Shown here in pieces: positions 13,801 through 64,000 of a stretch of DNA of 64,000 nucleotides. Both the position numbers and the translations under genes were made by a program. Source of the DNA: Eledone cirrhosa (Eukaryota); NCBI GenBank assembly GCA_964016885.1, contig OZ024764.1:27094001-27158000 (forward strand). The letters are read 5' to 3'. The notes beneath the pieces were generated by a model. That model worked only from the letters and a program-made list of their open reading frames with translations, did no database searches and had not been told where the DNA came from. How positions within the stretch are numbered: the stretch's first letter is position 1; every line of letters starts with the position of its first letter.

Positions 13801-16800
13801 TCTCTCTCAGAATTATTAGCCACAGGGGCAGAGATGACCATAACATTACATGTCAGAATTATTAGCCACAGGGGCAGAGATGTCCATAACATTACATGTC
13901 AGAATCATTAGCCACAGGGGCAGAGATGTCCATAACATTACATGACAGAATTATTAGCCACAGGGGCAGAGATGACCATAACATTACATGACAATTATTA
14001 GCCACAGGGGCAGATATGTCAATAACATTACATGACAGAGTTTCATCTCGCGCTCTCTCTCTCTCTCGTTTCATCTTGCGCTCTCTCTCTCTCGTTTCCT
14101 CTCGCTCTCTCTCTCTCTCGTTTCATCTCTGTCTTCCTCTCTCTCGTTCCATCTCTCTCTTCCTCTCTCTCGTTCAATCTCTCTCTTCCTCTCTCTCGTT
14201 TCATCTGTCTCTCTCTCTGTCGTTTCATCTCGCGCTCTCTCTCTCTCGTTTCATCTCGCGCTCTCTCTCTCTCATTTCATCTCGCTCTCTCTCTCTCTCG
14301 TTTCATCTCTGTCTTCCTCTCTCTCTTCCTCTCTCTCGTTCCATCTCTCTCTTCCTCTCTCTCGTTTCATCTCTATCTCCCTCGTTTCATCTCTCTCTCG
14401 CTCTCTCGTTTCATCTCTCTCTCCCTCTCGTCTCATCTCGCTCTCTCTCTTCTGTTTCATCTCGCTCTCTACTCTCGTCTCCTCTCTGTCGTTTCCTCTC
14501 TGTCTCGTTTCATCTCGCTCTCCCTGTCTCATTTCATCTCGCTCTCTCTCTCTCTCTTCCTCTCTGTCTCTTGTTTCAACACTCTAATCCCTCACTTGTT
14601 TTATCTCTCTCTAATCCCTCACTTGTTTCATCTCTCTCAGAATTATTAGCCACAGGGGCAGAGATGTCCATAACATTACATGTCAGAGTTATTAGCCACA
14701 GGGGCAGAGATGTCCATAACGTTACATGACAATTATTAGCCCCAAGGGCAGATATGTCCATAACATTACATGACAGAGTTTCATCTCGCGCTCTCTCTCT
14801 CTCGTTTCATCTCGCGCTCTCTCTCTTCCTCTCTCTCGTTTCATCTCGCTCTCTCTCTCTCTCGTTTAACCTCTGTCTTCCATCTCTCTCTTCCTCTCTC
14901 TCGTTCCATCTCACTCTTCCTCTCTCTCATTTCATCTCTCTCTCTCGTTTCATCTCTATCTCTCTCTCTCGTTTCATCTGTCTCTCTCTCTGTCGTTTCA
15001 TCTCCCTCTATCTCTCTCTCCCTCTCGTTTCATCTCGCTCTCTCTCTCCTGTTTCATCTCGCTCTCTCTCTCTCCTGTTTCATCTCGCTCTCTACTCTCG
15101 TTTCCTCTCTCTCTCCCTCCTGTTTCATCTCGCTCTCTCTCTCTCGTTTCATCTCGCTCTCACTCTCTTTTTCATCTCGCTCTCTCTCTGTCTCGTTTCA
15201 TCTCGCTCTCTCTCTCTCATTTCATCTCGCTCTCTCTCTCTCATTTCATCTCGCTCTCTCTCTCTCGTTTCATCTCGCTCTCACTCTCTCGTTTCATCTC
15301 GCTCTCACTCTCTCGTTTCATCTCGCTCTCCCTGTCTCGTTTCATCTCGCTCACACTCTCTCATTTCATCTCGCTCTCTCTCTCTTCTTTCAACACTCTA
15401 ATCCCTCACTTGTTTCATCTCTCTCAGAATTATTAGCCACAGGGCAGAAATGTCCATAACATTACATGTCAGAATTATTAGCCACAGGGGCAGAGATGTC
15501 CATAACATTACATGACAGAGTTTGATCTCGCTCTCTCTCTCTCTCGTTTCATCAGTGTCTTCCTCTCTCTCGTTCCATCTCTCTCTTGCTCTCTCTCGTT
15601 CCATCTCTATCTTCATCTCTCTCGTTTCATCTCTATCTCCCTCCTTTCATCTGTCTCTCTCTCTGTCGTTTCATCTCGCGCTCTCTCTCTCTCGTTTCAT
15701 CTCGCGCTCTCTCTCTCTCTTTCTCTCTCTCGTTTCATCTCTATCTCCCTCGTTTCATCTGTCTCTCGCTCTCTCGTTTCATCTCTCTCTCCCTCTCGTT
15801 TCATCTCGCTCTCTACTCTCGTTTCCTCTCTCTCGCGTTCCATCCCACTCTCTCTCTCTCTCATTACATCTCGCTCTCTCTGTCTCGTTTCATCTCGCTC
15901 TCTCTCTCTCTCGTTTCATCTCGTTCTCACTCTCTCGTTTCATCTCGCTTCTCTCACTCTCGTGTTTCATCTCGCTCTCCCTGTCTCATTTCATCTCGCT
16001 CTCTCTCTCTCTTCCTCTCTCTCTCTTCCTCTCTCTCTCTTGTTTCAACACTCTAATCCCTCACTTGTTTTATCTCTCTCTAATCCCTCACTTGTTTCAT
16101 CTCTCTCAGAATTATTAGCCACAGGGGCAGAGATGTCCATAACATTACATGTCAGAATTATTAGCCACAGGGCAGAGATGTCCATAACATTACATGTCAG
16201 AATTATTAGCCACAGGGGCAGAGATGTCCATAACATTACATGACAGAATTATTAGCCACAGGGGCAGAGATGTCCATAACATTACATGTCAGAATTATTA
16301 GACACAGGGCAGAGATGTCCATAACATTACATGTCAGAATTATTAGCCACAGGGGCAGAGATGTCCATAACATTACATGTCAGAATTATTAGCCACAGGG
16401 GCCGAGATGTCCATAACATTACATGAAAGAATTATTAGCCACAGGGGCAGAGATGTCCATAACATTACATGACAGAATTATTAGCCACAGGGGCAGAGAT
16501 GTCCATAACATTACATGACAATTATTAGCCCCAAGGGCAGATATGTCCATAACATTACATGACAGAGTTTCATCTGGCGCTCTCTCTCTTCCTCTCTCTC
16601 GTTTCATCTCTGTCTTCCTCTCTCTCGTTCCATCTCTCTCTTCCTCTCGCTCGTTCCATCTCTCTCTTCCTCTCTCTCGTTTCATCTCTATCTCCCTCCT
16701 TTCATCTGTCTCTCTCTCTGTCGTTTCATCTCGCGCTCTCTCTCTCTCGTTTCATCTCGCGCTCTCTCTCTCTCGTTTCATCTCTCTCTCTCTCTCGTTT

Positions 16801-19800
16801 CATCTCTGTCTTCCTCTCTCTCGTTCCATCTCTCTCTTCCTCTCTCTCGTTTCATCTCTATCTCCCTCGTTTCATCTCTCTCTCCCTCTCGTTTCATCTC
16901 GCTCTCTCTCTCCTGTTTCATCTCGCTCTCTACTCTCGTTTCCTCACTCTCGTTTCCTCTCTCTCTCGTTTCCTCTCTGTCTCGTTCCATCCCGCTCTCT
17001 CTCTCTCTCATTACATCTCGCTCTCTCTGTCTCGTTTCATCTCGCTCTCTCTCTCTCTCGTTTCATCTCGCTCTCCCTCTCTCGTTTCATCCCGCTCTCA
17101 CTCTCTCATTTCTTCTCGCTCTCTCTCTCTTGTTTCAACACTCTAATCCCTCACTTGTTTACTATCTCTCAGAATTATTAGCCACAGGGACAGAGATGAC
17201 CATAACATTACATGTCAGAATTATTAGCCACAAGGGCAGAGATGTCCATAACATTACATGACAGAATTATTAGCCACAGGGGCAGAGATGACCATAACAT
17301 TACATGAAAATTATTAGCCACAGGGGCAGATATGTCAATAACATTACATGACAGAGTTTCATCTCGCGCTCTCTCTCTCTCGTTTCATCTTGCGCTCTCT
17401 CTCTCTCTCGTTTCATCTTGCTCTCTCTCTCGTTTCATCTCTGTCTTCCTCTCTCTCGTTCCATCTCTCTCTTCCTCTCCCTCGTTCCATCTCTCTCATC
17501 CTCTCTCTCGTTTCATCTCTATCTCCCTCCTTTCATCTGTCTATTTCTCTGTCGTTTCATCTCGCGCTCTCTCTCTCTCGTTTCATCTCGCGCTCTCTCT
17601 GTCTCGTTTCATCTCGCTCTCTCTCGTTTCATCTCTGTCTTCCATCTCTCTCTTCCTCTCTCTCGTTCCATCTTTCTCTTCCTCTCTCTCGTTTCATCTC
17701 TATCTCCCTCGTTTCATCTCTCTCTCGCTCTCTCGTTTCATCTCTCTCTCCCGCTCGTTTCTTCTCGCTCTCTCTCTCCTGTTTCATCTCGCTCTCTACT
17801 CTCGTTTCCTCTCTCTCATTTCCTCTCTCTCTCGTTTCATCTCTGTCTCGTTTCATCTCGCTCTCTCTCTTTCTCGTTTGATCTCGCTCTCACTCTCTCG
17901 TTTCATCTCGCTTCTCTCACTCTCTTGTTTCATCTCGCTCTCTCTCTCTCTTCTTCTCTCTCTCTTGTTTCAACACTCTAATCCCTCACTTGTTTTATCT
18001 CTCTCTAATCCCTCACTTGGTTCATCTCTCTCAGAATTATTAGCCACAGGGGCAGAGATGTCCATAACATTGCATGTCAGAATTATTAGCCACAGGGCAG
18101 AGATGTCCATAACATTACGTCAGAATTATTAGCCACAGGGGCAGAGATGTCCATAACATTACATGTCAGAATTATTAGCCACAGGGGCAGAGATGTCCAT
18201 AACATTACATGACAGAATTATTAGCCACAGGGGCAGAGATGTCCATAACATTACATGTCAGAATTATTAGCCATAGGGGCAGAGATGTCCATAACATTAC
18301 ATGACAATTATTAGCCCCAAGGGCAGATATGTCGATAACATTACATGAGAGAGTTTCATCTCGCGCTCTCTCTCTTCCTCTCTCTCGTTTCATCTCTATC
18401 TCCCTCCTTTCATCTGTCTCTCTCTCTGTCGTTTCATCTCGCGCTCTCTCTCTCTCGTTTCATCTTGCGCTCTCTCTCTCTCGTTTCATCTCGCTCTCCC
18501 TCTCTCTCGTTTCATCTCTGTCTTCCTCTCTCTCGTTTCATCTCGCTCTCTCTCTCTCTCTCGTTTCATCTCTGTCTTCCTCTCTCTCGTTCCATCTCTC
18601 ACTTCCTCTCTCTCGTTCCATCTCTCTCTTCCTCTCTCTCGTTTCATCTCTCTCTCCCTTCTTTCATCTGTCTCTCTCTCTGTCGTTTCATCTCGCGCTC
18701 TCTCTCTCTCTCGTTTCATCTTGCGCTCTCTCTCTCTCTCGTTTCGTCTTGCTCTCTCTATCTCTCGTTTCATCTCTGTCTTCCTCTCTCGCGTTCCATC
18801 TCTCTCTTCCTCTCTCTCGTTCCATCTCTCTCATCCTCTCTCTCGTTTCATCTCTATCTCCCTCCTTTCATCTGTCTCTCTCTCTGTCGTTTCATCTCAC
18901 GCTCTCTCTCTCTCGTTTCATCTTGCGCTCTCTCTCTCTCGTTTCATCTCGCTCTCTCTCTCGTTTCATCTCTGTCTTCCTCTCTCTCGTTCCATCTCTC
19001 TCTTCCTCTCTCTCGTTCCATCTCTCTCTTCCTCTCTCTCGTTTCATCTCTATCTCCCTTCTTTCATCTGTCTCGCTCTCTGTAGTTTCATCTCGCGCTC
19101 TCTCTCTCTCGTTTCATGTCGCGCTCTCTCTCTCTCGTTTCATCTCGCTCTCTCTCTCTCGTTTCATCTCTGTCTTCCTCTCTCTCGTGCCATCTCTCTC
19201 TTCCTCTCTCTCGTTCCATCTCTCTCTTCCTCTCTCTCGTTTCATCTCTATCTCCCTTGTTTCATCTCTCTCTCGCTCTCTCGTTTCATCTCTCTCTCCC
19301 TCTCGTTTCATCTCGCTCTCTCTCTCCTGTTTCATCTCGCTCTCTCTCTCTCGTTTCATCTCTGTCTTCCTCTCTCTCGTTCCATCTCTGTCTTCCTCTC
19401 TCTCGTTCCATCTCTCTCTTCCTCTCCCTCGTTTCATCTCTCTCTCGCTCTCTCGTTTCATCTCTCTCTCCCTCTCATTTCATCTCGCTCTCTCTCTCCT
19501 GTTTCATCTCGCTCTCTACTCTCGTTTCCTCTCTCTCTCTCGTTTCATCTCTCTCTCCCTCCCGTTTCATCTCGCTCTCTCTCTCTCATTTCATCTCGCT
19601 CTCTCTCTCTCGTTTCATCTCGCTCTCCCTCTCTCGTTTCATCCCGCTCTCACTCTCTCATTTCTTCTCGCTCTCTCTCTCTTGTTTCAACACTCTAATC
19701 CCTCACTTGTTTACTATCTCTCAGAATTATTAGCCACAGGGACAGAGATGACCATAACATTACATGTCAGAATTATTAGCCACAAGGGCAGAGATGTCCA

Positions 19801-22732
19801 TAACATTACATGACAGAATTATTAGCCACAGGGGCAGAGATGACCATAACATTACATGAAAATTATTAGCCACAGGGGCAGATATGTCAATAACATTACA
19901 TGACAGAGTTTCATCTCGCGCTCTCTCTCTCTCGTTTCATCTTGCGCTCTCTCTCTCTCTCGTTTCATCTTGCTCTCTCTCTCGTTTCATCTCTGTCTTC
20001 CTCTCTCTCGTTCCATCTCTCTCTTCCTCTCCCTCGTTCCATCTCTCTCATCCTCTCTCTCGTTTCATCTCTATCTCCCTCCTTTCATCTGTCTCTCTCT
20101 CTGTCGTTTCATCTCGCGCTCTCTCTCTCTCGTTTCATCTCGCGCTCTCTCTGTCTCGTTTCATCTCGCTCTCTCTCGTTTCATCTCTGTCTTCCTCTCT
20201 CTCGTTCCATCTCTCTCTTCCTCTCTCTCGTTCCATCTCTCTCTTCCTCTCTCTCGTTTCATCTCTATCTCCCTCGTTTCATCTCTCTCTCGCTCTCTCG
20301 TTTCATCTCTCTCTCCCGCTCGTTTCTTCTCGCTCTCTCTCTCCTGTTTCATCTCGCTCTCTACTCTCGTTTCCTCTCTCTCATTTCCTCTCTCTCTCGT
20401 TTCATCTCTGTCTCGTTTGATCTCGCTCTCTCTCTTTCTCGTTTGATCTCGCTCTCACTCTCTCGTTTCATCTCGCTTCTCTCACTCTCTTGTTTCATCT
20501 CGCTCTCTCTCTCTCTTCCTCTCTCTCTCTTGTTTCAACACTCTAATCCCTCACTTGTTTTATCTCTCTCTAATCCCTCACTTGTTTCATCTCTCTCAGA
20601 ATTATTAGCCACAGGGGCAGAGATGTCCATAACATTACATGTCAGAATTATTAGCCACAGGGCAGAGATGTCCATAACATTACATGTCAAAATTATTAGC
20701 CACAGGGGCAGAGATGTCCATAACATTACATGTCAGAATTATTAGCCACAGGGGCGGAGACGTCCATAACATTACATGACAGAATTATTAGCCACAGGGG
20801 CAGAGATGACCATAACATTACATGACAATTATTAGCCACAGGGGCAGATATATCAATAACATTACATGATAGAGTTTCATCTCGCGCTCTCTCTCTCTCT
20901 CGTTTCATCTTGCGCTCTCTCTCTCTCGTTTCATCTTGCTCTCTCTCTCTCTCGTTTCATCTCTGTCTTCCTCTCTCTCGTTCCATCTCTCTATTCCTCT
21001 CTCTCGTTCCATCTCTCTCATCCTCTCTCTCGTTTTATCTGTATCTCCCTCCTTCAATCTGTCTCTCTCTCTGTCGTTTCATCTCGTGCTCTCTCTCTCT
21101 CGTTTCATCTCGCGCTCTCTCTGTCTCGTTTCATCTCGCTCTCTCTCTCTCTCTCGTTTCATCTCTGTCTTCCTCTCTCTCGTTCCATCTCTCTCTTCCT
21201 CTTTCTCGTTCCATCTCTCTCTTCCTCTCTCTCGTTTCATCTCTATCTCCCTCGTTTCATCTCTCTCTCGCTCTCTCGTTTCATCTCTCTCTCCCTCTCG
21301 TTTCATCTCCCTCTCTACTCTCGTTTCCTCTCTGTCTCGTTCCATCCCGCTCTCTCTCTCTCTCATTACATCTCGCTCTCTCTGTCTCGTTTCATCTCGC
21401 TCTCTCTCGCTCTCGTTTCATCTCGCTCTCACTCTCTCGTTTCATCTCGCTTCTCTCACTATTGCGTTTCATCTCGCTCTCCCTGTCTCATTTCATCTCG
21501 CTCTCTCTCTCTCTCTTCCTCTTGTTTCAACACTCTAATCCCTCACTTGTTTTATCTCTCTCTAATCCCTCACTTGTTTCATCTCTCTCAGAATTATTAG
21601 CCACAGGGGCAGAGATGTCCATAACATTACATGTCAGAGTTATTAGCCACAGGGGCAGAGATGTCCATAACATTACATGACAATTATTAGCCCCAAGGGC
21701 AGATATGTCCATAACATTACATGACAGAGTTTCATCTCGCGCTCTCTCTCTCTCGTTTCATCTCGCGCTCTCTCTCTTCCTCTCTCTCGTTTCATCTCGC
21801 TCTCTCTCTCTCTCGTTTCACCTCTGTCTTCCATCTCTGTCTTCCTCTCTCTCGTTCCATCTCACTCTTCCTCTCTCTCATTTCATCTCTCTCTCTCTCG
21901 TTTCATCTGTCTCTCTCTCTGTCGTTTCATCTCCCTCTATCTCTCTCTCCCTCTTGTTTCATCTCGCTCTCTCTCTCCTGTTTCATCTCGCTCTCTCTCT
22001 CTCATTTCATCTCGCTCTCTCTCTCTCATTTCATCTCGCTCTCTCTCTCTCGTTTCATCTCGCTCTCACTCTCTCGTTTCATCTCGCTCTCACTCTCTCG
22101 TTTCATCTCGCTCTCCCTGTCTCGTTTCATCTCGCTCACACTCTCTCATTTCATCTCGCTCTCTCTCTCTTCTTTCAACACTCTAATCCCTCACTTGTTT
22201 CATCTCTCTCAGAATTATTAGCCACAGGGGCAGAGATGTCCATAACATTACATGTCAGAATTATTAGCCACAGGGGCAGAGATGTCCATAACATTACATG
22301 ACAGATTTATTAGCCACAGGGGCAGAGATGTCCATAACATTACATGACAGATTTATTAGCCACAGGGGCAGAGATGTCTATAACATTACATGACATAATT
22401 ATTAGCCACAGGGGCAGAGATGTCCATAACATTACATGGCAGATTTATTAGCCACAGGGGCAGAGATGTCCATAACATTACATGTCAGAATTATTAGCCA
22501 CAGGGGCAGAGATGTCCATAACATTACATGACAGATTTATTAGCCACAGGGGCAGAGATGTCCATAACATTACATGACAGATTTATTAGCCACAGGGGCA
22601 GAGATGTCTATAACATTACATGACATAATTATTAGCCACAGGGGCAGAGATGTCCATAACATTACATGACAGAATTATTAGCCACAGGGGCAGAGATGTC
22701 CATAACATTACATGACAGAATTATTAGCCACA
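7855..22732 (-). repeat. Same composite satellite in inverted orientation, about 15 super-units
   Basis: Reverse-complement monomer CAGAATTATTAGCCACAGGGGCAGAGATGTCCATAACATTACATGA. CT blocks start near 8125, 9600, 10571, 11381, 12357, 13225, 14034, 14772, 15514, 16561, 17350, 18347, 19902, 20868 and 21723, and each ends in ...CTAATCCCTCACTTG...CTCTCAGAA. Confidence 0.97.
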
Positions 22733-22960
22733 TGTAATGTTATGGACATCTCTGCCCCTGTGGCTAATAATTCTGTCATGTTATGTTATGGACATCTCTG
22801 CCCCTGTGGCTAATAATTCTGACATGTAATGTTAGGGACATCTCTGCCCCAGTGGCTCATAATTCTGACATGTAATGTTATGGACATCTCTGCCCCTGTG
22901 GCTAATAATTCTGTCATGTAATGTTATGGACATCTCTGCCCCTGTGGCTAATAATTCTGT
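22730..22960 (+). repeat. Five 46-bp monomers back in + orientation, ending the satellite domain
   Basis: TTAGCCACA|TGTAATGTTATGG switch at 22730-22732; the array ends ATAATTCTGT and is joined to TCAAATCTGACTGAC. Confidence 0.95.
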
Positions 22961-24019: not shown

Positions 24020-26301
24020 AATGGAAAACATTCAGACAGAGAAGAATGGATAATGAGCGTTGTAAGAGAAATTGGCCAACAATTAATATTAATGGAAATG
24101 TAGAAGAATTTCATATTAGTGATATGAATGTTTTGTGTGATCACTGTGGAGCTTTGAAATTTAGAAATGAAAATTGTAACTGTTGTAATAAAGGAAAGGT
24201 TGTGTTGCCACCATTGCAAATATACCCTGAGAGACTGAGAAATCTCTTTGAAAGAGGCCAGGAAGCAGTTGATTTCACAGAAACATCTGCAATTAAAACT
24301 ACATTTATTTCACTTCATTTGGTGTTACCACCCGGCAGAGGCCCGTATAGCTTTCATATTCAGGGTCAAACATATCAATACACCCCCATCTCTGTAACCT
24401 GCAGAAAATACACCACAATATGGCCAGTTATATATTATTGATGGGAATGAAAGTGTGTAGCACAGATTGGAAGTACAACCAAATAATTGTTTCTGGCACA
24501 AGGCCAGCAATTACTGGTACTTTATTCTATCGACCTCATAAGGATGAAAACAAAGTCAACCTTAGAGGGATTTGAACCCAGAACGTAAAGGGCCATAACC
24601 CTATGCTGCAAAGCATGGTGTCTGACGCTCTACCGATACTGCCAATCCACCACCCTAGTACCAACAAATAATGACTGCTCACCACAAAAAATGGCTATGA
24701 TAAGAGAGGTGTTGCATGAATGTTATCCATATGTCGAAGTGTACAATACAATGCATGGCATCAAACAGCAAAGTTCTAGAAGAGAAAATTGTCGTGTACA
24801 GAACTGTGAATTAAGATTTAGAAGAGGATCAGATATGAGCTGCTATAATTTACCAACTAGTAATGATAGCTGTTGTTTTGTGGGGGATTGAGGGCACACC
24901 ACCTGTACAAAGAGATATTATCATCTTTCCTAAAGACCATCCTCCTCAGAAAATACCACATAATTCATGCCACTTGGACCTCATGACCGACCGATAATGG
25001 TGAATTTTGGTGGCATAGTGACATGGAGAGGAATGCAGGACCTGTGTTTGCAATAGACTGACAATGCAGGAGTATTACATATACTGTATAGCATATAGAG
25101 GAGGATTTAGTGCGATATATAGGGCAGGTAAATTATTTTAGCAGTATTTAGTGGATGCCTATATGAAAGTAGAGGGATGCAGGCTTCAATATTTGAGGAA
25201 CAATCAAGCCCAATTGTGAGTGGATGAGTATAATGGTTTAATGAATTATCTAAACAGATGATAACACTGAGCCTTAAAAAATGAAGACAAGATATGAAAC
25301 AGAGAAGACATTGACAGAATCGTGTCAGCAGAAATACCTGCATTGGAAGATGATCCAGTACTACATGAGCAGGTTTAAAAGTTTATTATCCACAGGCCAT
25401 GTGGTTCTGGAAACCCTTTTCCCCCATTTATACAAAATGGATTTTTCCAAAAGAACTATCCAAAAACCTACAGAAGGGAAACATTATTGAACCTAAATGG
25501 ATACCCAGAGTACAGGAGGTGCAAGACAGGAACTGCAGTGTAAATTGGATGACATTCAGTAGATAACAGGAATGTTGTGCCACTTAATGCCTTTTTGCTT
25601 AAGAAATATTGTGCACATATTAATGTTGAAGTTTGCGCTTCTGTAAAAAGTGTCAAGTACCTCTTTAAATATGTTACATGGGGCATGATTGTACATCTAT
25701 AGAAGTAACGAATAATGCATTACCTAATGAGGCTCAGAACCAACACAACCATGATGAAATAAGAACCTATCTTTGTTGCAGGTATGTGTCTCAGCCAGAA
25801 GCAGTGTTGTGTCTCTCAGAATTTAAGCTTCATGGTACATCACATACAGTATACAGCCTAGCCACACACCTGGAGAACAAACAGAGTTTACTTTCAAAGA
25901 GGCAATGCTTACACCTTCTGGGATGCCGCCTCACTAACTCCAATTAAAAGCAGGATCAATAATAATGCTTCTATGGAATATTTCAATCCAGAACAGATTA
26001 TTTTATTGGCACAAGATTAGAAGTAGTGGAACTGCATAAACATTTTATCGAAGCTTCTCATATCTATGGTCCTTTGATGGGCAGGTGTGTTTTGATCCGA
26101 AGACTGAAGTTAGTTCCCAGTGGTGCCAACATCCCTTTTACTTTGGAAAGACCCCAGTTTCCATTAAGACTGTCATATGCCATGACAATCAACAAGAACC
26201 ATGGTCAAATACATGATAAAGTGGGTCTGTTCCTCCCTGAGCAAGTATTTAACCCTGGACAATTGTATGTTGCTTTTTCAAGAGTTCACAGACAGATGTA
26301 A
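24020..26301 (+). pseudogene. Helitron Rep/helicase relic, copy 1 (frameshifted, internally deleted)
   Basis: CDHCGALKF..CCNKGKVVLPPL zinc finger; PPGRGPYSFHIQGQ; YLVDAYMKVEG; SAEIP; VDNRNVVPLNAFLLKKYCAHINVEVCASVKSVKYLFKYV (Rep motif 3, ~25560-25675); DEIRTYL..RYVSQPEA; Pif1 C-terminal QFPLRLSYAMTINKNHGQ..GQLYVAFSRV. No HUH motif or Walker A was recognised. Confidence 0.9.
24488..24656 (-). mobile_element. tRNA-derived SINE inserted in the Helitron relic (same insertion at ~33777, 46413, 61034)
   Basis: The minus strand has an A-box-like TGGCAGTATCGG, a B-box GGTTCAAATCC and the core GTTGACTTTG..CATCCTT..GGTCGATAGAATAAAGTACCAGT. Flanked by AGTACAACCAAATAAT (24472-24487) and AGTACCAACAAATAAT (24657-24672), a 16-bp duplication with 2 mismatches. 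Confidence 0.85.
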
Positions 26302-33292: not shown

Positions 33293-35647
33293 ATGCAAAT
33301 AGACTTAGAATGGAAAACATTCAGACAGAGAAGAATGGATAATGAGCGTCATAAGAGAAATTGGCCAACAATTAATATTAATGGAAATCTAGAAGAATTT
33401 CATATTAGTGATATGAATGTTTCGTGTGATCACTGTGAAGCTTTGAAATTTAGAAATGAAAATTGTAACTGTTGTAATAAAGGAAAGGTTGTGTTGCCTC
33501 CATTGCAAATATACCCCGAGAGACTGAGAAATCTCTTTGAAAGAGGCCAGGAAGCAGTTGATTTCACAGAAACATCTGCAATTAAAACTACATTTATTTC
33601 ACTTCATTTGGTGTTACCACCCGGCAGAGGCCCGTATAGCTTTCATATTCAGGGTCAAACATATCACTACACCCCCACCTCTGTAACCTGCAGAAAATAC
33701 ACCACAATATGGCCAGTTATATATTATTGATGGGAACGAAGGTGTGTAGCACAGATTGGAAGTACAACCAAATAATTGTTTCTGGCACAAGGCCAGCAAT
33801 TACTGGTACTTTATTCTATCGACCTAATAAGGATGAAAACAAAGTCAACCTTGGAGGGATTTGAACCCAGAACGTAAAGGGCCATAACCCTATGCTGCAA
33901 AGCATGGTGTCTGATGCTCTACCGATACTGCCAATCCACCGCCCTAGTACCAACAAATAATGACTGCTCACCACAAAAAATGGCTATGATAAGAGAGGTG
34001 TTGCATGAATGTTATCCATATGTCGAAGTGTACAATACAATGCATGGCATCAAACAGCAAAGTGCAAGAAGAGAAAATTGTCGTGTACAGAACTGTGAAT
34101 TAAGATTTAGAAGAGGATCAGATATGAGCTGCTATAATTTACCAACTAGTAATGATAGCTGTTGTTTTGTGGGGTTTGAGGGCAGACCACCTGTACAAAG
34201 AGATATTATCATCTTTCCTAAAGACCATCCTCCTCAGAAAATATCACATAATTCATGCCACTTGGACCTCATGACTGACCCATAATGGTGAATTTTGGTG
34301 GCATAGTGACATGGAGAGGAATGCAGGACCTGTGTTTGCAATAGACTGACAATGCAGGAGTATTACATATACAGTATAGCATATAGAGGAGGATTTAGTG
34401 TGATATATAGGGCAGGTAAATTATTTTAGCAGTATTTAGTGGATGCCTATATGAAAGTAGAGGGATGCAGGCTTCTATATTTGAGGAACAATCAAGCCCA
34501 ATTGTGAGTGGATGAGTATAATGGTTTAATGAATTATCTAAACAGATGATAACACTGAGCCTTAAAAAATGAAGACAAGATAAGAAACAGAGAAGACATT
34601 GACAGAATCGTGTCAGCAGAAATACCTGCATTGGAAGATGATCCAGTACTACATGAGCAGGTTTAAAAGTTTATGATCCACAGGCCATGTGGTTCTGGAA
34701 ACCCTTTTCCCCCATTTATACAAAATGGATTTTTCCAAAAGAACTATCCAAAAACCTACAGAAGGGAAACATTATTGAACCTAAATGGATACCCAGAGTA
34801 CAGGAGGTGCAAGACAGGAACTGCAGTGTAAATTGGATGACATTCAGTAGATAACAGGAATGTTGTGCCATTTAATGCCTTTTTGATTAAGAAATATTGT
34901 GCACATATTAATGTTGAAGTTTGCGCTTCTGTAAAAAGTGTCAAGTACCTCTTTAAATATGTTACATGGGGCATGATTGTACATCTATAGAAGTAACGAA
35001 TAATGCATTACCTAATGAGGCTCAGAACCAACACAACCATGATGAAATAAGAACCTATCTTTGTTGCAGGTATGTGTCTCAGCCAGAAGCAGTGTCGTGT
35101 CTCTCGGAATTTAAGCTTCATGGTACATCACATACAGTATACAGCCTAGTCACACACCTGGAGAACAAACAGAGTTTACTTTCAAAGAGGCAATGCTCAG
35201 GTTGTGGTAGAAATGCAGGGACCCTTGCTGCCTGGTTCAAGCTAAAAGAACTTGCTTACACCTTCTGGGATGCCGCCTCACAAACTCCAATTATAAGCAG
35301 GATCAATAATAATGCTTCTATGGAATATTTCAATCCAGAACAGATTATGTAATGGCACAAGATTAGAAGTAGTAGAACTGCATAAACATTTTATCAAAGC
35401 TTCTCATATCTATGGTCCTTTGATGGGCAGGTGTGTTTTGATCCCAAGACTGAAGTTATCCCCCAGCGGTGCCAACATCCCTTTTACTTTGGAAAGACCC
35501 CAGTTTCCATTAAGACTGTCATATGCCATGACAATCAACAAGAACCATGGTCAAATACATGATAAAGTGGGTCTGTTCCTCCCTGAGCAAGTATTTAACC
35601 CTGGACAATTGTATGTTGCTTTTTCAAGAGTTCACAGACAGATGTAA
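33293..35647 (+). pseudogene. Helitron Rep/helicase relic, copy 2 (most complete)
   Basis: Same motifs as copy 1 at offset ~9288, plus TLAAWFKL and LLWNISIQNRLCNGTRLEV..VLIPRLKL. Carries the same SINE insertion and most of the same frameshifts. Confidence 0.92.
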
Positions 35648-44342: not shown

Positions 44343-45786
44343 TGGGTTACATATAAGGTCTCATTTTTTTTCTTTTCTTTCTTTCAGTTTTCTTCTTATC
44401 TCTAGATATAAATATATATACATAAGGTAACTTGGTAGAATTGTTAGAACATCAGATAGAATTCTTTGCAGTATTTTTCCAGTTCTTTACTCTGAGTTCA
44501 ACTTTACCTTTCTTCCATTCAGTGTCGATAAGTCTTGAATATGTCTAACGTAGCAATAACTGGAGCTACTTAACCAAGTTTTCCCAACCTAGTCGATGTC
44601 ACCTACTGGTTGGCGATTTAAACTGTTGGCTGCGACAATGACCAACTAATCAGTCAGATTCGAACTCACTATGTCTGGCATATATTTTATATTTTATATT
44701 TGAATGAAGTTCTGTAAGTAACCTGGTGGCTTAGATGGCAATACTGCTCGAATAGATGGCTTCTAGTTCATTCCCTATCCAGGATTGTAGAATTAATTTT
44801 ATTTAGTTATTATTTAATCAATTGTTTTAACAAACAAATTATATCTATAAAACGCCAAATATAGTGAGTTCAAATCTGACTGACATGCATGGTATATATT
44901 TATGTTTCATTATACAGCGACACAATACACAGGAACTTATAAAGATATGTATATATTGTCCAGGAGTTTCGAGTTTAGTGGGAATTGGTACAACTCTCAG
45001 TTGGAGCTAGTCCCTGCAAGATCAGCATAAATAATGTTATACCTTTTCATGAAATCTTGCACACCCGATATTTTATACATGATTATTTAAAGGTGAACAA
45101 AAACCAAAGAACATTGTGCAGCATTCTCAACCTTTCTACCCATGTCGATCTCTTGAAATAGTTTTTATGTCTCAGGGAAGCCCTGCATAAAATATACTTT
45201 TTCTATCTCTAGAGCAGTGGTTCCCAAATCGTGTGCTGAGAGATGAAACAAGATGAGCTGCAAAAGACTAAGATTAAGTTTTATGATGTGAAAAATATAA
45301 AACTGAAATTTCATATAAAAGTTCAAATATAGCTACAGCCACAAACCTAGGCTCCACACCCCGCAATGCAGAGGATAGTAAGATAGTACCAAGGCCTGAA
45401 AATGAGACCTCTGCCATACTTGGTCCCTGTACTGCTGATTTCCTCCATAAAGTCGGGAGGAAAGACGACAGGAGCTTCATGAGGAGGGGCGACTATTGTA
45501 GCAGGTGTCTCTGGCCTTGCTCTGAGGTAACGCTTTTACGTTTCTTCCACAGGTTGCGGCTGAGGGACCACTTAGACTGGGGTGAAGTGTCTGTCCCTCC
45601 CCCGACTTCTTACTTCTTTTTTTTTCTCATTTTCATTTTCTTTTCTCTTCTTGCTTATCTCTGCTATACCACGGCATCAAAAACATATATGATATATGTA
45701 TGTATGGTATAGGTGTATTTATATTTAGGATAGTTATCAAAGGTAAATAGACTGGTTGGAGCAATAACAGTCTTGTTTATGTATGT

Positions 45787-45928: not shown

Positions 45929-46688
45929 ATGCAAATAGACTTAGAATGGAAAACATTCAGACAGAGAAGAATGGATAATGAGCGTCGTAAGAGAAATTGG
46001 CCAACAATTAATATTAATGGAAATGTAGAAGAATTTCATATTAGTGATATGAATGTTTCGTGTGATCACTGTGGAGCTTTGAAATTTAGAAATGAAAATT
46101 GTAACTGTTGTAATAAAGGAAAGGTAGTGTTGCCACCATTGCAAATATACCCTGAGAGACTGAGAAATCTCTTTGAAAGAGGCCAGGAAGCAGTTGATTT
46201 CACAGAAACATCTGCAATTAAAACTACATTTATTTCACTTCATTTGGTGTTACCACCCGGCAGAGGCCCGTATAGATTTCATATTCAGGGTCAAACATAT
46301 CAATACACACCCATCTCTGTAACCTGCAGAAAATACACCACAATATGGCCAGTTATATATTATTGATGGGAACGAAGGTGTGTAGCACAGATTGGAAGTA
46401 CAACCAAATAATTGTTTCTGGCACAAGGCCAGCAATTACTGATACTTTATTCTATCGACCTCATAAGGATGAAAACAAAGTCAACCTTAGAGGGATTTGA
46501 ACCCAGAACGTAAAGGGCCATAACCCTATGCTGCAAAGCATGGTGTCTGACGCTCTACCGATACTGCCAATCCACTGCCCTAGTCCCAACAAATAATGAC
46601 TGCTCACCACAAAAAATGGCTATGATAAGAGAGGTGTTGCATGAATATAATCCATATGTCGAAGTGTACAATACAATGCATGGCATCA
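45929..46688 (+). pseudogene. Helitron relic copy 3, 5' part (interrupted)
   Basis: Matches copy 2 up to ATGCATGGCATCA (46688). Confidence 0.9.
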
Positions 46689-49313
46689 CAAATGAATATA
46701 TATATATATACTACTAAAGTGTATGTAAAATTTTAAAATAAATACTTAAATTCAATTTGTATAATTACACATACAATATGTTTTGTTGTAAAACCCTAAA
46801 TAATGATTTAAGAAATGATGTCAATCTCTTTGTACAGAGAAAAACAATTTATATATATGCATCGTGTGCGCGTGTATACTCCATTTAAGACAGCGAAAAA
46901 CCTAGTACCTCCTTCAAAGAATGCCAAATAGTTTATGCCTAAGGTGTAACACTAATTAAGTTACTGGTATAGATATTTCAGTTGAACCCTGCTTCAAACA
47001 TGCATATTATTATTATATATTTTCAAACACACTTACATACATTATATTTATACACATAGAAATGTTAAAACTAAAGTATAATGATATAACAACAGTATAT
47101 AATAGTTTTCTTCACTTTATTGAGATGCAATCGTTTTAAAGAAAAAACATGACAGTATAAGAAATATTTAATATGATAACATAATATTTCAGGTAGGATG
47201 GTGGTTTCTCTTTGAACTAATAATTGTTTCTACTTTAGGCACAAGGCCAGCAATTAACCAGTACATTACTGGTACTTTATTTTATCGACCCCGTAAGGAT
47301 GAAAGGCAAAGTTAACCTCGGATCGTAAAGGGACGTAACTATGCTGGAAAGCATGGCGTCAGACCCTCTACCGATACTGCCAATTCACCATACAGTATAA
47401 TTATACAAATATGCATATAGATAGCAATATATATACACTAATATGTATGTACATATTTATACATATATACATATATATAGGGAGAGAGAGAGACACATGT
47501 ATGTATATATATATACACATGCGTGTATGTATGTGTTTATGTACATTCTTCGGTATATATATATGAGTCACGGTTTATTACACATTGGAGACACAGAGAG
47601 AAAGAGTTGAAACGAGAGGTGAGAGAGTTGAAACAAGAGAGGAGAGAGTTGAAACGAGAAAAGAGAGAGAGAGTTGAAACGAGAGGAGAGAGAGAGAGAG
47701 TTGTAACGAGAGGAGAGAGAGAGAGAGAGTTGAAACGAGAGGAGAGAGAGTTGAAACGAGGAGAGAGTTGAAACAAGAGGGTGAGGGGAGAGAGGGGAGA
47801 GAGTGATGAAACGAGTCGGAGATAGAGTGTGAAAGAGAGAGAGAGAGGAAGAGAGAGAGAGAGGAAGAGAGAGAGAGAGAGAGGAAGAGAGAGAGAGAAA
47901 GAGAGAGAGAGAGGAAGAGAGAGAGAGGAAGAGAGAGAGAGGAAGAGGGAGAGGGGGGATGAAACAAGAGGGTGAGGGATGAAACAAGAGAGAGAGGGGA
48001 GAGAAAGAGAGAGGGGAGAGAAAGAGAGAGGGGAGAGAAAGAGAGAGAGAGAGAGAGAACGAATTGAAACAAGAGAGAGATGAAACAAGTGAGGGATTAG
48101 AATGTTGAAACAAGAGAGAGAGGAAGAGAGAGAGAGAGCAAGATGGAACGAGAGAGAGAGAGCGAGATGAAATGAGAGCGAGATGAAACGAGAGAGAGAG
48201 AGAATGAGATGAAATGAGAGAGAGAGAGAGCGAGAGAGAGAGCGAGATGAAACGAGAGAGAGAGAGAGAGAGAGAGAGCGAGATGAAATGAGACAGAGAG
48301 AGCGAGATGAAACGAGAGAGAGAGAGAGCGAGATGAAATGAGAGAGTGAGTGCGAGATGAAATGAGAGAGAGTGAGAGCGACATGAAATGAGAGAGAGAG
48401 AGCGAGATGAAACGAGAGAGAGAGAGAGCGAGATGAAATGAGAGAGAGTCAGAGCGAGATGAAATGAGAGAGTGAGAGCGAGATGAAATGAGAGAGAGAG
48501 AGCGAGATGAAATGAGAGAGAGTGAGAGCGAGATGAAATGAGAGAGAGAGAGCGAGATGAAATGAGAGAGAGAGGAAACGAGACTAGAGAGCGAGATGAA
48601 ACAGGAGAGAGAGAGCGAGATGAAACAGGAGAGAGAGAGCGAGATGAAACAGGAGAGAGAGAGCGAGATGAAACGAGAGGGAGAGAGAGATGAAATGAGA
48701 GAGCGAGAGAGAGATAGAGGGAGATGAAACGACAGAGAGAGAGACAGATGAAACGAGAGAGAGAAATAGAGATGAAACGAGAGAGAGTGATGAAACGAGA
48801 GAGAGGAAGAGAGAGATGGAACGAGAGAGAGGAAGAGAGAGATGGAACGAGAGAGAGGAAGACAGAGATGAAATGAGAGAGAGGAAGACAGAGATGAAAC
48901 GAGAGAGAGAGAGAGCGAGATGAAACGAGAGAGAGAGAGCGCGAGATGAAACTCTGTCATGTAATGTTATGGACATATCTGCCCCTGGGGCTAATAATTG
49001 TCATGTAATGTTATGGTCATCTCTGCCCCTGTGGTTAATAATTCTGTCATGTAATGTTATGGTCATGTCTGCACCTGTGGCTAATAAATCTGTCATGTAA
49101 TGTTATGGTCATCTCTGCCCCTGTGGCTAATAATTCTGTCATGTAATGTTATGGACATCTCTGCCCCTGTGGCTAATAATTCTGACATGTAATGTTATGG
49201 ACATCTCTGCCCCGGTGGCTAATAATTCTGACATGTAATGTTATGGACATCTCTGCCCCTGTGGCTAATAATTCTGACATGTAATGTTATGGACATTGCT
49301 ATCTTGTTTCATC
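46689..49313 (+). other. 2625-bp insertion in the Helitron relic: AT-rich leader with a SINE (~47230-47390, minus), GA tract (47587-48951) and 46-bp array (48957-49296)
   Basis: Removing it restores GGCA-TCA-AACAGC as seen at 24761 and 34050; TCA is present at both 46686-46688 and 49314-49316. Confidence 0.9.
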
Positions 49314-50912
49314 TCAAACAGCAAAGTGCAAGAAGAGAAAATTGTCGTGTACAGAACTGTGAATTAAGATTTAGAAGAGGATCAGATATGAGCTGCTCTA
49401 ATTTACCAACTAGTAATGATAGCTGTTGTTTTGTGGGGGATTGAGGGCACACCACCTGTACAAAGAGATATTATCATCTTTCCTAAAGACCATCCTCCTC
49501 AGAAAATACCACATAATGCATGCCACTTGGACCTCATGACCGACCGATAATGGTGAATTTTGGTGGCATAGTGCCATGGAGAGGAATGTAGGACCTGTGT
49601 TTGCAATAGACTGACAATGCAGGAGTATTACATATACTGTATAGCATATAGAGGAGGATTTAGTGCGATATATAGGGCAGGTAAATTATTTTAGCAGTAT
49701 TTAGTGGATGCCTATATGAAAGTAGAGGGATGCAGGCTTCAATATTTGAGGAACAATCAAGCCCAATTGTGAGTGGATGAGTATAATGGTTTAATGAATT
49801 ATCTAAACAGATGATAACACTGAGCCTTAAAAAATGAAGACAAGATAAGAAACAGAGAAGACATTGACAGAATCGTGTCAGCAGAAATACCTGCATTGGA
49901 AGATGATCCAGTACTACATGAGCAGGTTTAAAAGTTTATGATCCACAGGCCATGTGGTTCTGGAAACCCTTTTCCCCCATTTATACAAAATGGATTTTTC
50001 AAAAAGAACTATCCAAAAACCTACAGAAGGGAAACATTATTGAACCTAAATGGATACCCAGAGTACAGGAGGTGCAAGACAGGAACTGCAGTGTAAATTG
50101 GATGACATTCAGTAGATAACAGGAATGTTATGCCATTTAATGCCTTTTTGCTTAAGAAATATTGTGCACATATTAATGTTGAAGTTTGCGCTTCTGTAAA
50201 AAGTGTCAAGTACCTCTTTAAATATGTTACATGGGGCATGATTGTACATCTATAGAAGTAACGAATAATGCATTACCTAATGAGGCTCAGAACCAACACA
50301 ACCATGATGAAATAAGAACCTATCTTTGTTGCAGGTATGTGTCTCAGCCAGAAGCAGTGTCGTGTCTCTCGGAATTTAAGCTTCATGGTACATCACATAC
50401 AGTATACAGCCTAGCCACACACCTGGAGAACAAACAGAGTTTACTTTCAAAGAGGCAATGCTCAGGTTGTGGTAGAAATGCAGGGACCCTTGCTGCCTGG
50501 TTCAAGCTAAATGAACTTGCTTACACCTTCTGGGATGCCGCCTCACTAACTCCAATTATAAGCAGGATCAATAATAATGCTTCTATGGAATATTTCAATC
50601 CAGAACAGATTATGTAATGGCACAAGATTAGAAGTAGTAGAACTGCATAAACATTTTATCAAAGCTTCTCATATCTATGGTCCTTTGATGGGCAGGTGTG
50701 TTTTGATCCCAAGACTGAAGTTATCCCCCAGTGGTGCCAACATCCCTTTTACTTTGGAAAGACCCCAGTTTCCATTAAGACTGTCATATGCCATGACAAT
50801 CAACAAGAACCATGGTCAAATACATGATAAAGTGGGTCTGTTCCTCCCTGAGCAAGTATTTAACCCTGGACAATTGTATGTTGCTTTTTCAAGAGTTCAC
50901 AGACAGATGTAA
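49314..50912 (+). pseudogene. Helitron relic copy 3, 3' part
   Basis: Resumes at TCAAACAGCAAAGTG; Rep motif 3 and Pif1 C-terminal motifs as in copy 2. Confidence 0.92.
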
Positions 50913-51484
50913 AAATTAATCCTAGCAAACCCCCACCACTCCTACAACTGTTAGCTGTTAGCCCACCCCCAGCACCACCCAACCTCCGTTCTAGTCCCAC
51001 CGTTAGAACCAATGCTGCTTACCCTGCCTCTTTTACTAGTTCACTCCGTCGCTCGAATTTCAAAGCTGGCCCTCTACACTTGGTCGTTGCCAGCTCACCA
51101 CCTGGTTGTGCTCTCTGTGTCCGCACTAGCCGGTACCTAAACACAATAAAATGTCACCTGTGCTACCAAAACTACCACAGGAACTCTGTCGGCATCAGCA
51201 AGGCTCAAGCCGAAAGGCTTCAATACTAGACCTGTAATCAGGGCCACTTTACCTCCGACGACCAGCTTTCTACCGAGTGTGTGTTGATGGAGGGGACATG
51301 AGACCAGCAAAGTCCTAGGAGTAGAGACTAGTAAATAATAAACGGTCCTAGCTATGTTAAGAATATATATAAGAAAAATGTTCTATACATTTAAGAAGAC
51401 AAGAGAAATAAATATTTACCTCTTTCATGTAGGTAATATAGCGGTGTTATAAAAGTATAATAACTGATGCAGGTAGTTTGTTTC

Positions 51485-61309: not shown

Positions 61310-61313
61310 CAAA

Positions 61314-61348
<35 letters not shown>

Positions 61349-62520
61349 TACTAAAGAGTATGTAAAATTTTAAAATAAATACTTAAATTCAATTTGTATA
61401 ATTACACATACAATATGTTTTGTTGTAAAACCCTAAATAATGATTTAAGAAATGATGTCAATCTCTTTGTACAGAGAAAAACAATTTATATATATGCATT
61501 GTGTGCGCGTGTATACTCCATTTAAGACAGTGAAAAACCTAGTACCTCCTTCAAAGAATGCCAAATAGTTTATGCCTAAGGTGTAACACTAATTAAGTTA
61601 CCGGTGTAGATATTTCAGTTGAACCCTGCTTCAAACATGCATATTATTATTATATATTTTCAAACACACTTACATACATTATATTTATACACATAGAAAT
61701 AATAAGTTAAAACTAAAGTATAATGATATAACAACAGTATATAATAGTTTTCTTCACTTTATTGAAATGCAATCGTTTTAAAGAAAAAACATGACAGTAT
61801 AAGAAATATTTAATATGATAACATAATATTTCAGGTAGGATGGTCGTTTCTCTATGATGGTGGTTTCTCTTTGAACTAATAATTGTTTCTATTTTAGGCA
61901 CAAGGTCAGTAATTAACCAGTACATTACTGGTACTTTATTTTATCGACCCCGTAAGGATGAAAGGCAAAGTTGACCTCGGATCGTAAAGGGACGTAACTA
62001 TGCTGGAAAGCATGGCGTCAGACCCTCTACCGATACTGCCAATTCACCATACAGTATAATTATACAAATATGCATATAGATAGCAATATATATACACTAA
62101 TATGTATGTACATATTTACACATATGTACATATATATAGGGAGAGAGAGAGACACATGTATGTATATATATATACACATGCGTGTATGCATGTGTGTTTA
62201 TGTACATTCTTCGGTATATATATCGGTATACACATTGGAGACACAGAGAGAGAGAGTTGAAACGAGAGGTGAGAGAGTTGAAACAAGAGAGGAGATGGTT
62301 GAAACACGAGGAGAGAGAGAGAGTTGAAACGAGAGGAGAGAGAGTGAGTTGAAACGAGGAGAGAGTTGAAACAAGAGGGTGAGGGGAGAGAGGAAGAGAG
62401 AGAGAGAGAGGAAGAGAGAGAGAGGGGATGAGAGAGAGGAATAGAGATAGAGGGGAAGAGAGAGAGGGGGAGAGAAGGGGATGAAACAACAGAGAGAGGG
62501 GAGAGAAAGAGAGAGGGGAT

Positions 62521-62555
<35 letters not shown>

Positions 62556-62819
62556 ATTGAATCAAGAGAGAGATGAAACAAGTGAGGGATTAGAGAGAGA
62601 TGAAACAAGTGAGGGATTAGAGTGTTGAAACAAGAGAGAGAGAGCGAGATGAAATGAGAGAAAGAGAGTGAGATGAAATGAGAGAGTGGGAGCGAGATGA
62701 AACGAGACAGGGAGAGCGAGATGAAATGAGAGAGTTAGAGTGAGATGAAACGAGAGAGTGAGAGCGAGATGAAACGAGAGACAGAGAGAGCGAGATGACA
62801 CGAGACAGAGAGCGAGATG

Positions 62820-62858
<39 letters not shown>

Positions 62859-64000
62859 GAAACGAGAGAGAGAGTGCGAGATGAAACGAGAGTGAGAGAG
62901 CGAGATGAAACGAGAGAGTGAGAGCGAGATGAAATGAGAGAGAGAGAGAACGAGATGAAATGAGAGAGAGAGAGAGCGAGATGAAATGAGACATAGAGAG
63001 ATGAAACGAGAGAGAGATGAAACGAGAAAGAGAGGAAACGAGAGAGAGGAAACGTGAGTAGAGAGCGAGATGAAACAGGAGAGAGAGAGCGAGATGAAAC
63101 GAGAGGGAGAGAGAGATGAAACGAGAGCGAGAGAGAGATAGAGGGAAATGAAACGTCAGAGAGAGAGACAGATGAAACGAGGGATATAGAGATGAAACGA
63201 GAGAGAGAGATGAAACGAGAGAGAGGAAGAGAGAGATAGAACGAGAGAGAGGAAGAGAGAGATGAAACGAGAGAGAAGAAGACAGAGGTGAAACGAGAGA
63301 GAGAGCGAGATGAAACGAGAGAGAGAGCGAGATGAAACGAGAGAGAGGAAGAGAGAGAGCGAGAGATGAAACTCTGTCATGGACATATCTGACCCTGGGG
63401 CTAATAATTGTCATGTAATGTTATGGACATCTCTGCCCCTGTGGCTAATAATTCTGTCATGTAATGTTATGGACATCTCTGCCCCTGTGGCTAATAATTC
63501 TGTCATGTAATGTTATGGAAATCTCTGCCCCTGTGGCTAATAATTCTGACATGTAATGTTATGGAATCTCTGCCCCTGTGGCTAATAAATCTGTCATTTG
63601 ATGTTACGGACATCTCTGCCCCTGTGGCTAATAAATCTGTCATGTAATGTTATGGACATCTCTGCCCCTGTGGCTAATAATTCTGACATGTAATGTTATG
63701 GACATCTCTGCCCCTGTAGCTAATAATTCTGACATGTAATGTTATGGACATCTCTGCCCCTGTGGCTAATAAATTCGTCATGTAATGTTATGGACATCTC
63801 TGCCCCTGTGGCTAATAAATCTGTCATGTAATGTTATGGACATCTCTGCCCCTGTGGGTGGCTAATAATTCTGACATGTAATGTTATGGACATCTCTGCC
63901 CCTGTGGCTAATAATTCTGACATGTAATGTTATGGACATCTCTGCCCCTGTGGCTAATAATTCTGAGAGAGATGAAACAAGTGAGGGATTAGAGAGAGAT
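61310..64000 (+). repeat. Second copy of the satellite-bearing insertion, continuing into a new tandem super-unit
   Basis: Leader with a SINE (~61890-62050), GA tract ~62237-63371 and 46-bp array 63377-63965. It then reads TTCTG-AGAGAGATGAAACAAGTGAGGGATTAG, the same junction as at 1530, 3017, 4383 and 6499. Confidence 0.92.

What the first reader, a model, noticed from the sequence alone, without database searches (positions are those of the whole stretch)
46689..49316. A single satellite super-unit sits as a clean insertion inside a Helitron relic: candidate founder of the 23-kb array
Seen: the Helitron reads GGCA-TCA-AACAGC uninterrupted at 24761 and 34050, but here it is split by 2625 bp with TCA on both sides. 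The insert carries one GA block plus about 7.5 46-bp monomers, i.e. the monomeric form of the unit tandemly amplified at 1-22960, with a unique leader that the array lacks. The ends (CAAATGAAT... / ...CTTGTTTCATC) show no TIR, LTR or poly-A tail, so the insert fits no ordinary TE class. Inference: either an unrecognised non-autonomous mobile unit or a repair-captured segment that seeds satellite arrays. Links between Helitrons and satellite origin are known in other animals; this composite is not one I recognise.
Basis: partly seen in the sequence, partly recalled or inferred. Interest (0 to 1): 0.72.

Follow-up and report, generated by a model that had tools for sequence, protein, structure and literature searches.

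The report
Repair patch that seeded a satellite
A 2.6-kb patchwork of older repeats sits at the same single spot of a broken rolling-circle transposon in about 115 duplicated copies; it likely landed once as a DNA-repair patch rather than jumping, and the long satellite arrays nearby likely grew in place from the same insertion, a traceable but ordinary kind of satellite birth.

Summary
The 2,625-bp insert with TCA on both sides is real, but it is not single and its leader is not unique. The left junction occurs 105 times and the right junction 46 times in the genome; 30 of 30 and 30 of 30 inspected copies share the same Helitron flanks. It is one insertion copied inside a macro-repeat, not a mobile element. 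The '23-kb array' begins 11.4 kb upstream of the window at the same junction with the same leader, so it is an expansion of the same insertion (34 kb, 25 blocks). The leader is three rearranged pieces of a 6.3-kb macrosatellite family, joined by 2-5-nt microhomologies; both ends share 2 nt with the TCA, which points to repair capture. Half of the 46-bp monomer equals the 3' tip of an abundant Tx1-like LINE. The founder idea holds for the insertion event; this copy is a sister of the arrays, and the tree cannot prove that the single unit came first (AU p=0.29). The scan noted similar in-place growth on other DNA of this genome, nothing on this sequence.

The parts
45943..46688 (+). Left part of the decayed Helitron RepHel relic (with an old SINE piece at about 46420-46580); ends in TCA (46686-46688)
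   Evidence: 98% to uninterrupted copies at 24018-24763 and 33307-34052; translation
46689..46997 (+). Leader piece A: fragment of a 6.3-kb macrosatellite unit; the donor shares CA with the Helitron at the junction
   Evidence: 96.4% to C18:33.63 Mb, 84-90% to C22 and C24 members
46998..47212 (+). Leader piece C: lies 1.8 kb downstream of A in the donor unit; joined over TCAA microhomology
47213..47586 (+). Leader piece B: lies between A and C in the donor unit (order permuted); carries a SINE (about 47218-47390) at the same place as in two C24 members
47587..48074 (+). 5' part of the GA-rich block, present only in the first unit of arrays
   Evidence: its motifs occur only at -10420 to -10133 of the 34-kb array; same GA family follows the donor relative at C18:33.63 Mb
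48075..48952 (+). 3' part of the GA-rich block: first half of the tandemly amplified super-unit
   Evidence: 43 of 43 captured monomer-to-GA junctions re-enter at this register
48953..49296 (+). 7.5 copies of the 46-bp monomer; 18-19 nt of it equal the 3' tip of a Tx1-like LINE
49297..49313 (+). 17-nt tail, likely an inverted templated snippet; shares TC with the right TCA
   Evidence: reverse complement matches own GA block (13 nt; 2 of 2000 shuffles reach 13), flank 45240-45254 (15 nt) and C5:120.5 Mb (21 nt)
49314..51484 (+). Right part of the Helitron relic and following macro-repeat DNA; starts with TCA
24761..24763 (+). Empty site (TCA once)
34050..34052 (+). Empty site (TCA once)
61310..64000 (+). 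Second filled copy: same junction and leader, start of a 25-kb array that runs beyond the window
1..22960 (.). Distal two thirds of a 34.3-kb array that starts at -11368 with the same junction and leader; fold-backs at 7855 and 22732; right junction lost

Best explanation
The insert is a patchwork of older repeats that sits at one identical site in all inspected copies; it likely entered one copy of the dead Helitron once, as a microhomology-guided repair patch at a break, was then likely copied passively with the surrounding macro-repeat, and likely seeded the long arrays by an internal tandem duplication. Steps. (1) Shown: a Helitron relic is amplified in tandem macro-repeats, with empty sites on six chromosomes-scale contigs. 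(2) Inferred: at a staggered break at TCA, repair synthesis copied or captured DNA from a locus of the 6.3-kb macrosatellite family that carried a GA satellite, switching template three times (A to C to B to GA) and finishing with a short inverted snippet. (3) Shown: the filled allele exists in about 115 copies with identical flanks on C25, C20, C18 and C1. (4) Shown geometry, inferred order: one duplication junction (monomer to position 48075, GA microhomology) defines the super-unit; unequal exchange and fold-backs enlarged it to arrays of up to at least 34 kb and removed the right junction. (5) Inferred: the 46-bp monomer arose from the 3' tip of a Tx1-like LINE plus 22-27 nt of untraced flank, at or shortly before the capture.
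For: Same flanks in 30 of 30 left and 30 of 30 right junctions. Empty site more widespread: 129 matches, also on C23 and C24. Donor family with Helitron-free context in 8 of 9 relative loci examined, all ending in CA before the leader; closest relative (96.4%) is followed by a same-strand GA block of the same motif. Insert leaders form one clade (UFboot 98) with that locus as sister (97). 2-5-nt microhomologies at A|C, C|B, B|GA and both ends. Rearranged C|B joint: 99 of the 100 listed matches (117 in all) lie in the macro-repeat clusters, the other is an unrelated SINE copy. Arrays start at the same junction; 5' GA motifs only in the first unit; one duplication register in 43 of 43 captured junctions. 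45 of 46 right junctions close a single unit. All 100 of 100 rare-variant monomers lie in these clusters or one small unplaced contig. An independent 128-bp monomer patch replaces about 10 nt of a SINE on C7 without duplication.
Against: No donor with the complete A-C-B-GA-monomer order was found, and none of 9 relative loci holds the monomer. Support for single-unit lineages branching first is weak (72, 64, 60) and monophyly of all single-unit leaders is not rejected (AU p=0.289). Recombination is evident (18 of 231 site pairs fail the four-gamete test; L142 has an array-type leader with a single unit and right junction), so single units can be made from arrays. Array units differ more from each other (4.7% over 112 nt, 16 units) than leaders do (1.6%), which would also fit an older array. 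Contigs of a second species label hold the array-type leader but no right junction (contigs cannot show absence). A formal 3-bp duplication does exist, and 2-nt microhomologies can be chance.
Confidence: 0.7

Rival explanations
1. Array first: the captured patch already held several super-units, cut from a now lost donor array, and the 2.6-kb form is a later collapse by exchange between the first and last monomer blocks.
For: AU test does not reject single-unit monophyly; recombinant single units exist (L142); array units are more diverse than leaders; the inverted GA-like tail could be the relic of a fold-back array; only the array-type leader is seen in the second species label.
Against: 45 of 46 right junctions close one unit and the exception follows a fold-back array; four more single units without right junction on C18:25 Mb form a separate early branch; no monomer array outside the clusters among 100 of 100 rare-variant hits and only C1 and C7 among contigs C1-C17; the insert's first monomers lie close to the array majority (2 of 112 nt).
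Confidence: 0.18
2. Retro-copy: a transcript ending in repeats of the LINE 3' tip was reverse-transcribed in trans by the Tx1-like LINE, giving the 3-bp duplication.
For: The LINE tip lies in sense orientation at the 3' end of the insert; the family has 2,963 exact 3' ends and makes copies truncated to about 22-24 nt, once in tandem (L202, L203, L235).
Against: The insert does not end at the LINE end or in its tail; 30 of 30 LINE ends are followed by an (ATCT)/(AT)-type microsatellite, whereas this target is Helitron coding DNA; one event only; the permuted leader needs extra steps.
Confidence: 0.08
3. Unrecognised non-autonomous mobile unit (HINE/Helentron-like, MITE or other) carrying central tandem repeats.
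For: Composite of microsatellite-like block plus short tandem array resembles Cg_HINE anatomy (PMC7492417, passages); copies on four contigs.
Against: One insertion site only; no TIR, sub-TIR, terminal hairpin or CTRR end; cluster boundaries fall at different places of the macro-repeat.
Confidence: 0.03

Closest known systems
Templated or captured insertions at double-strand breaks (PMC11724301, abstract and outline; PMC6368560, passages)
   Same: Truncated pieces of distant repeats and satellites, 1-4-nt microhomologies, short inverted templated snippet, several pieces from one locus.
   Different: Natural, germline, fixed and then amplified about 115-fold; a formal 3-bp duplication remains; no enzyme requirement can be tested here.
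Satellites derived from retrotransposon 3' ends: cetacean common satellite from the L1 3' end, PisTR-A from the Ogre 3' UTR, HeT-A 3' region (review PMC9659126, passages)
   Same: Monomer contains the 3'-terminal sequence of a retroelement.
   Different: Only 18-19 of 46 nt trace to the LINE; the array did not grow inside the LINE; it alternates with a GA block in a 1-2-kb super-unit.
DINE-TR1 and Cg_HINE: satellites from central tandem repeats of Helitron/Helentron elements (PMC6947457, PMC7492417, passages)
   Same: Tandem repeats inside a Helitron-family sequence that expand into satellite arrays.
   Different: Here the repeats are a foreign insert in a dead coding region, lack HINE modules and were not spread by transposition.

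Membership tests
Mobile element of any class | Same ends at several sites with different flanks | tested here: not met
   30 of 30 left and 30 of 30 right junctions share flanks; 105 and 46 junctions in the same clusters
TIR DNA transposon / MITE (3-bp duplication classes) | Terminal inverted repeats | tested here: not met
   longest inverted match 6 nt, within shuffled null
HINE / non-autonomous Helentron | Subterminal inverted repeats and 3' palindrome (PMC7492417) | tested here: not met
   no sub-TIR; end folds -0.3 to -3.0 kcal/mol, from monomer or AT sequence
HINE / non-autonomous Helentron | Microsatellite plus central short tandem array | tested here: met
   GA block and 7.5 monomers
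Canonical Helitron (insert itself) | 5' TC and 3' CTRR with hairpin, no duplication (recalled) | tested here: not met
   no terminal CTRR on either strand
LTR element | Direct terminal repeats | tested here: not met
   longest direct match 6 nt
LINE-mobilised retro-copy | Ends at the LINE 3' end with its tail | tested here: not met
   LINE tip is inside the monomers; insert ends in a 17-nt unrelated tail
Repair-captured (templated) insertion | Donor elsewhere, truncated at both ends | tested here: met
   leader and GA family traced; exact donor locus not found
Repair-captured (templated) insertion | Short microhomologies at the joints | tested here: met
   2 nt at both ends, 2-5 nt at three inner joints, two with one extra base
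Repair-captured (templated) insertion | Dependence on end-joining or template-switch enzymes | not testable with these tools
   historic event
Founder of the arrays | Arrays start at the same insertion junction and repeat an inner part of it | tested here: met
Founder of the arrays | Single-unit state is basal in a rooted tree | tested here: inconclusive
   best tree agrees with weak support; AU p=0.289; recombination
Helitron (host) | RepHel coding remnants | tested here: met
   Pif1_2B_dom above cut-off, weak Helitron_like_N; element termini not located

The most novel reading that the evidence does not exclude
A whole satellite family of thousands of monomers on four chromosomes was born in one repair event: its monomer was built from the 3' tip of a LINE, stitched with macrosatellite scraps into a dead Helitron, and a complete fossil series (empty site, one unit, multi-unit and fold-back arrays, a stray patch on C7) survives at under 2% divergence, allowing the tempo of satellite birth to be read across individuals and sister species.
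Probability: 0.35. Interest if true: 0.5.

Novelty: new member of a known kind. Interest (0 to 1): 0.33.

Why it matters
It is not a new class of mobile element. Its value is as a well-resolved case of how a satellite starts: parts, junctions, empty sites and stages of growth are all present in one assembly, and the Helitron acts only as a passive landing site. If the single-unit-first order is confirmed in relatives, it would be a clean, datable example of satellite DNA seeded by a repair accident.

Tried and rejected
Rfam on 46300-49500: only sub-threshold miRNA models on TA-rich DNA; Rfam gathering on five donor-family loci: none; no tRNA gene in the 6.3-kb unit. C7:42.17 Mb as monomer donor: rejected, it is a 128-bp patch inside a SINE. 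C11:41.3 Mb as leader donor: rejected, unrelated SINE copy. Tail hits on C2 and C28: 16-mer only, near the control count of 2; C5 (21 nt) left open. A donor continuing the last monomer with the tail's first bases: none, 46 of 46 hits are the junction. C20 leaders that seemed to lack the left junction: same junction with a retroelement tail inserted in the TA run (one copy read). Non-LINE half of the monomer as an inverted piece of the LINE 3' UTR: score 16, reached by 317 of 1000 shuffles, rejected. One search was mis-designed (the ambiguity letter included the consensus base) and adds nothing. No RNA holder listed. Trees left out five copies with truncated or inverted leaders (three C25:14.7 Mb, L172, C1). 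Paper searches listed no description of this repeat; they cover only the open library and are not proof that none exists.

Full report
Observation. The window is G000:C25:27094001-27158000 of a 3.0-Gb assembly. The insert spans 46689-49313 (2,625 bp) with TCA on both sides, and two empty sites lie at 24761 and 34050. It holds a 0.9-kb leader, a GA-rich block and 7.48 periods of a 46-bp monomer. No TIR, LTR, terminal hairpin or CTRR end was found. The host is a decayed Helitron RepHel frame. The SINE pieces look like the octopus tRNA-derived SINEs as I recall them; that label is recalled and was not tested.

It is one insertion, copied many times. A second copy of junction and leader lies in the window at 61310. 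Genome-wide there are 105 left junctions (up to 2 mismatches, 100 listed), 115 leader interiors and 46 exact right junctions, in clusters on C25, C20, C18 and one on C1. The 30 best leader loci (of 40 scored, 479 candidates) all continue into the same Helitron flank; 30 of the 46 right junctions were fetched and all continue into the same right flank. Empty sites number 129 and also occur in tandem on C23 and C24, so the empty state is the more widespread. The region is a macro-repeat of roughly 10-15-kb modules.

The array belongs to the same insertion. Reading upstream of the window shows that the array at 1-22960 starts at -11368 with the same Helitron flank and leader; it is 34.3 kb with 25 monomer blocks and two fold-backs. 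The copy at 61310 likewise opens a 25-kb array. Motifs of the first 490 bp of the GA block occur only in the first unit, and 43 of 43 monomer-to-GA junctions captured by my pattern in three arrays re-enter the block at one register, position 48075, over a GA microhomology (the pattern would miss other junction types, and caught 21 junctions for 25 blocks in the first array). This is the geometry of an internal tandem duplication. Arrays have lost the right junction. Of 46 right junctions, 45 close a single unit: 42 by distance to a listed leader (the four longest of them read directly) and 3 by direct reading; the exception on C20 follows a fold-back array.

Where the parts came from. An allele-specific search exposed a 6.3-kb tandem macrosatellite on C22 (207 matches in all, 68 of the 100 listed on C22) and solo relatives on C24 and C18. 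The leader is three pieces of this unit in permuted order, A, C, B; piece B carries a SINE at the same place as two C24 members. The closest relative, C18:33.63 Mb, is 96.4% identical over piece A and is followed on the same strand by a GA block of the same motif, with no Helitron. In 8 of 9 relative loci the base context before the leader could be read and ends in CA, as does the Helitron flank. The inner joints show 2-5-nt microhomologies, two with one extra base. The 17-nt tail, read backwards, matches the insert's own GA block (13 nt; 2 of 2000 shuffles reach 13), the flank 1.45 kb upstream (15 nt) and a site on C5 (21 nt); all three share TC with the right TCA. So two of the three duplicated bases at each end can be read as microhomology. 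Such truncated, multi-piece insertions with 1-4-nt microhomologies and short inverted snippets are described at experimental breaks (PMC11724301, abstract and outline; PMC6368560, passages). The rearranged C|B joint has 117 matches; 99 of the 100 listed lie in the clusters and one is an unrelated SINE. No complete donor was found.

The monomer. An exact 22-mer has 3,981 matches; among contigs C1-C17 only the C1 cluster and three monomers on C7 appear. All 100 of 100 hits to rare monomer variants lie in the clusters or on one small contig. This samples only two kinds of variant, so an array elsewhere is unlikely but not excluded. Eighteen to nineteen bases of the monomer equal the 3' tip of a LINE (E 0.001 in 1.45 Mb of held loci) with a zf-RVT domain ('Tx1-like' is my recalled label), 2,963 exact 3' ends and microsatellite tails in 30 of 30 loci read. 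Copies truncated to 22-24 nt exist, two with the same ATCTCT lead-in or a tandem repeat. The other half of the monomer is untraced. Satellites from retroelement 3' ends are known (PMC9659126, passages). The C7 patch of 128 bp replaces about 10 nt of a SINE, a second repair-type capture.

Is this copy the founder? A tree of 89 insert leaders and 4 relatives (five truncated or inverted copies left out) puts all inserts in one clade (98) with C18:33.63 Mb as sister (97). Single-unit lineages branch first and arrays are nested, but support is 60-72 and monophyly of single units is not rejected (AU p=0.289). Recombination is clear (18 of 231 site pairs; recombinant L142). The window copy carries T and A at 46965 and 46969 where arrays and the closest relative have C and G, so it is a sister lineage, 1.6% from array leaders. 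Its first monomers are 2 of 112 nt from the array majority, while 16 array units differ by 4.7% from each other, which fits a founder state but also an older array. I put single-unit-first at about 4 to 1.

Independent reads. A contig of run X1 crosses the left junction without differences but with only 22 letters on the insert side, and another matches 46696-47167 exactly; X2 and X5 (a second species label) hold the array-type leader across its inner joints. Empty sites are in X1, X2 and X5; none of their contigs covers the tail; raw reads of X21 show more depth over 49307-49317 than empty-site reads explain, so the right junction is likely present there (inferred from bin depths). An assembly artefact is therefore unlikely for the junctions; array lengths were not checked.

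Comparison and verdict. It works like a repair-captured insertion followed by ordinary tandem amplification. It is not a HINE (PMC7492417, passages) and differs from DINE-TR1 (PMC6947457, passages) in that the Helitron is a passive site. Earlier notes of this scan describe one insertion multiplied with a repeat, in-place array growth and fold-back satellites on other pieces of this genome (unchecked); none covers this place or sequence. New member of a known kind, interest 0.33.

Noticed in passing
G000:C22:15.1-18.9 Mb (L121-L137): 6.3-kb tandem macrosatellite in several blocks of both orientations; the unit holds a 400-bp near-perfect palindrome and older, 72-78% identical inverted repeats; no Rfam or tRNA hit.
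   Followed up: partly
L082, G000:C7:42172763-42172890: 2.8 monomers of the 46-bp satellite captured inside a SINE with loss of about 10 nt.
   Followed up: yes
L069:574-1960 and L207-L236: Abundant young LINE family (2,963 exact 3' ends) followed by (ATCT)n tails, often stacked or truncated to about 22 nt; L203 has a tandem duplication of the tip.
   Followed up: partly
G000:C1:212.61-212.63 Mb (L085-L089): Isolated piece of the macro-repeat: begins inside a monomer joined to a LINE coding fragment and ends in an older, 88-96% identical Helitron paralogue.
   Followed up: partly
L094, G000:C20 about 26.936 Mb: Single-unit allele with a short retroelement 3' tail, (GAT)n, inserted in the leader's TA run; nine C20 leaders lack the exact junction pattern, one was read.
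   Followed up: partly
G000:C23:8.6, 15.2, 17.4-17.6 Mb; C24:3.8 Mb: The same Helitron relic, empty, is tandemly repeated with periods of about 8.3 and 15 kb.
   Followed up: no
window 43632-44343 and 58268-58979; 36197-36674: An 89-bp palindromic minisatellite and a 55-bp minisatellite vary in copy number among macro-repeat modules.
   Followed up: no
L102-L103, G000:C24 about 27.01-27.02 Mb; L181: About 10-kb array of a related GA satellite beside a solo member of the 6.3-kb family; in L139 the GA block starts from inside the unit's palindrome.
   Followed up: partly
runs X5 and X2: A second species label holds the array-type leader and the monomer at far higher depth than the Helitron; single-unit markers were not seen there or in X2, so the single-unit allele may be polymorphic.
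   Followed up: no
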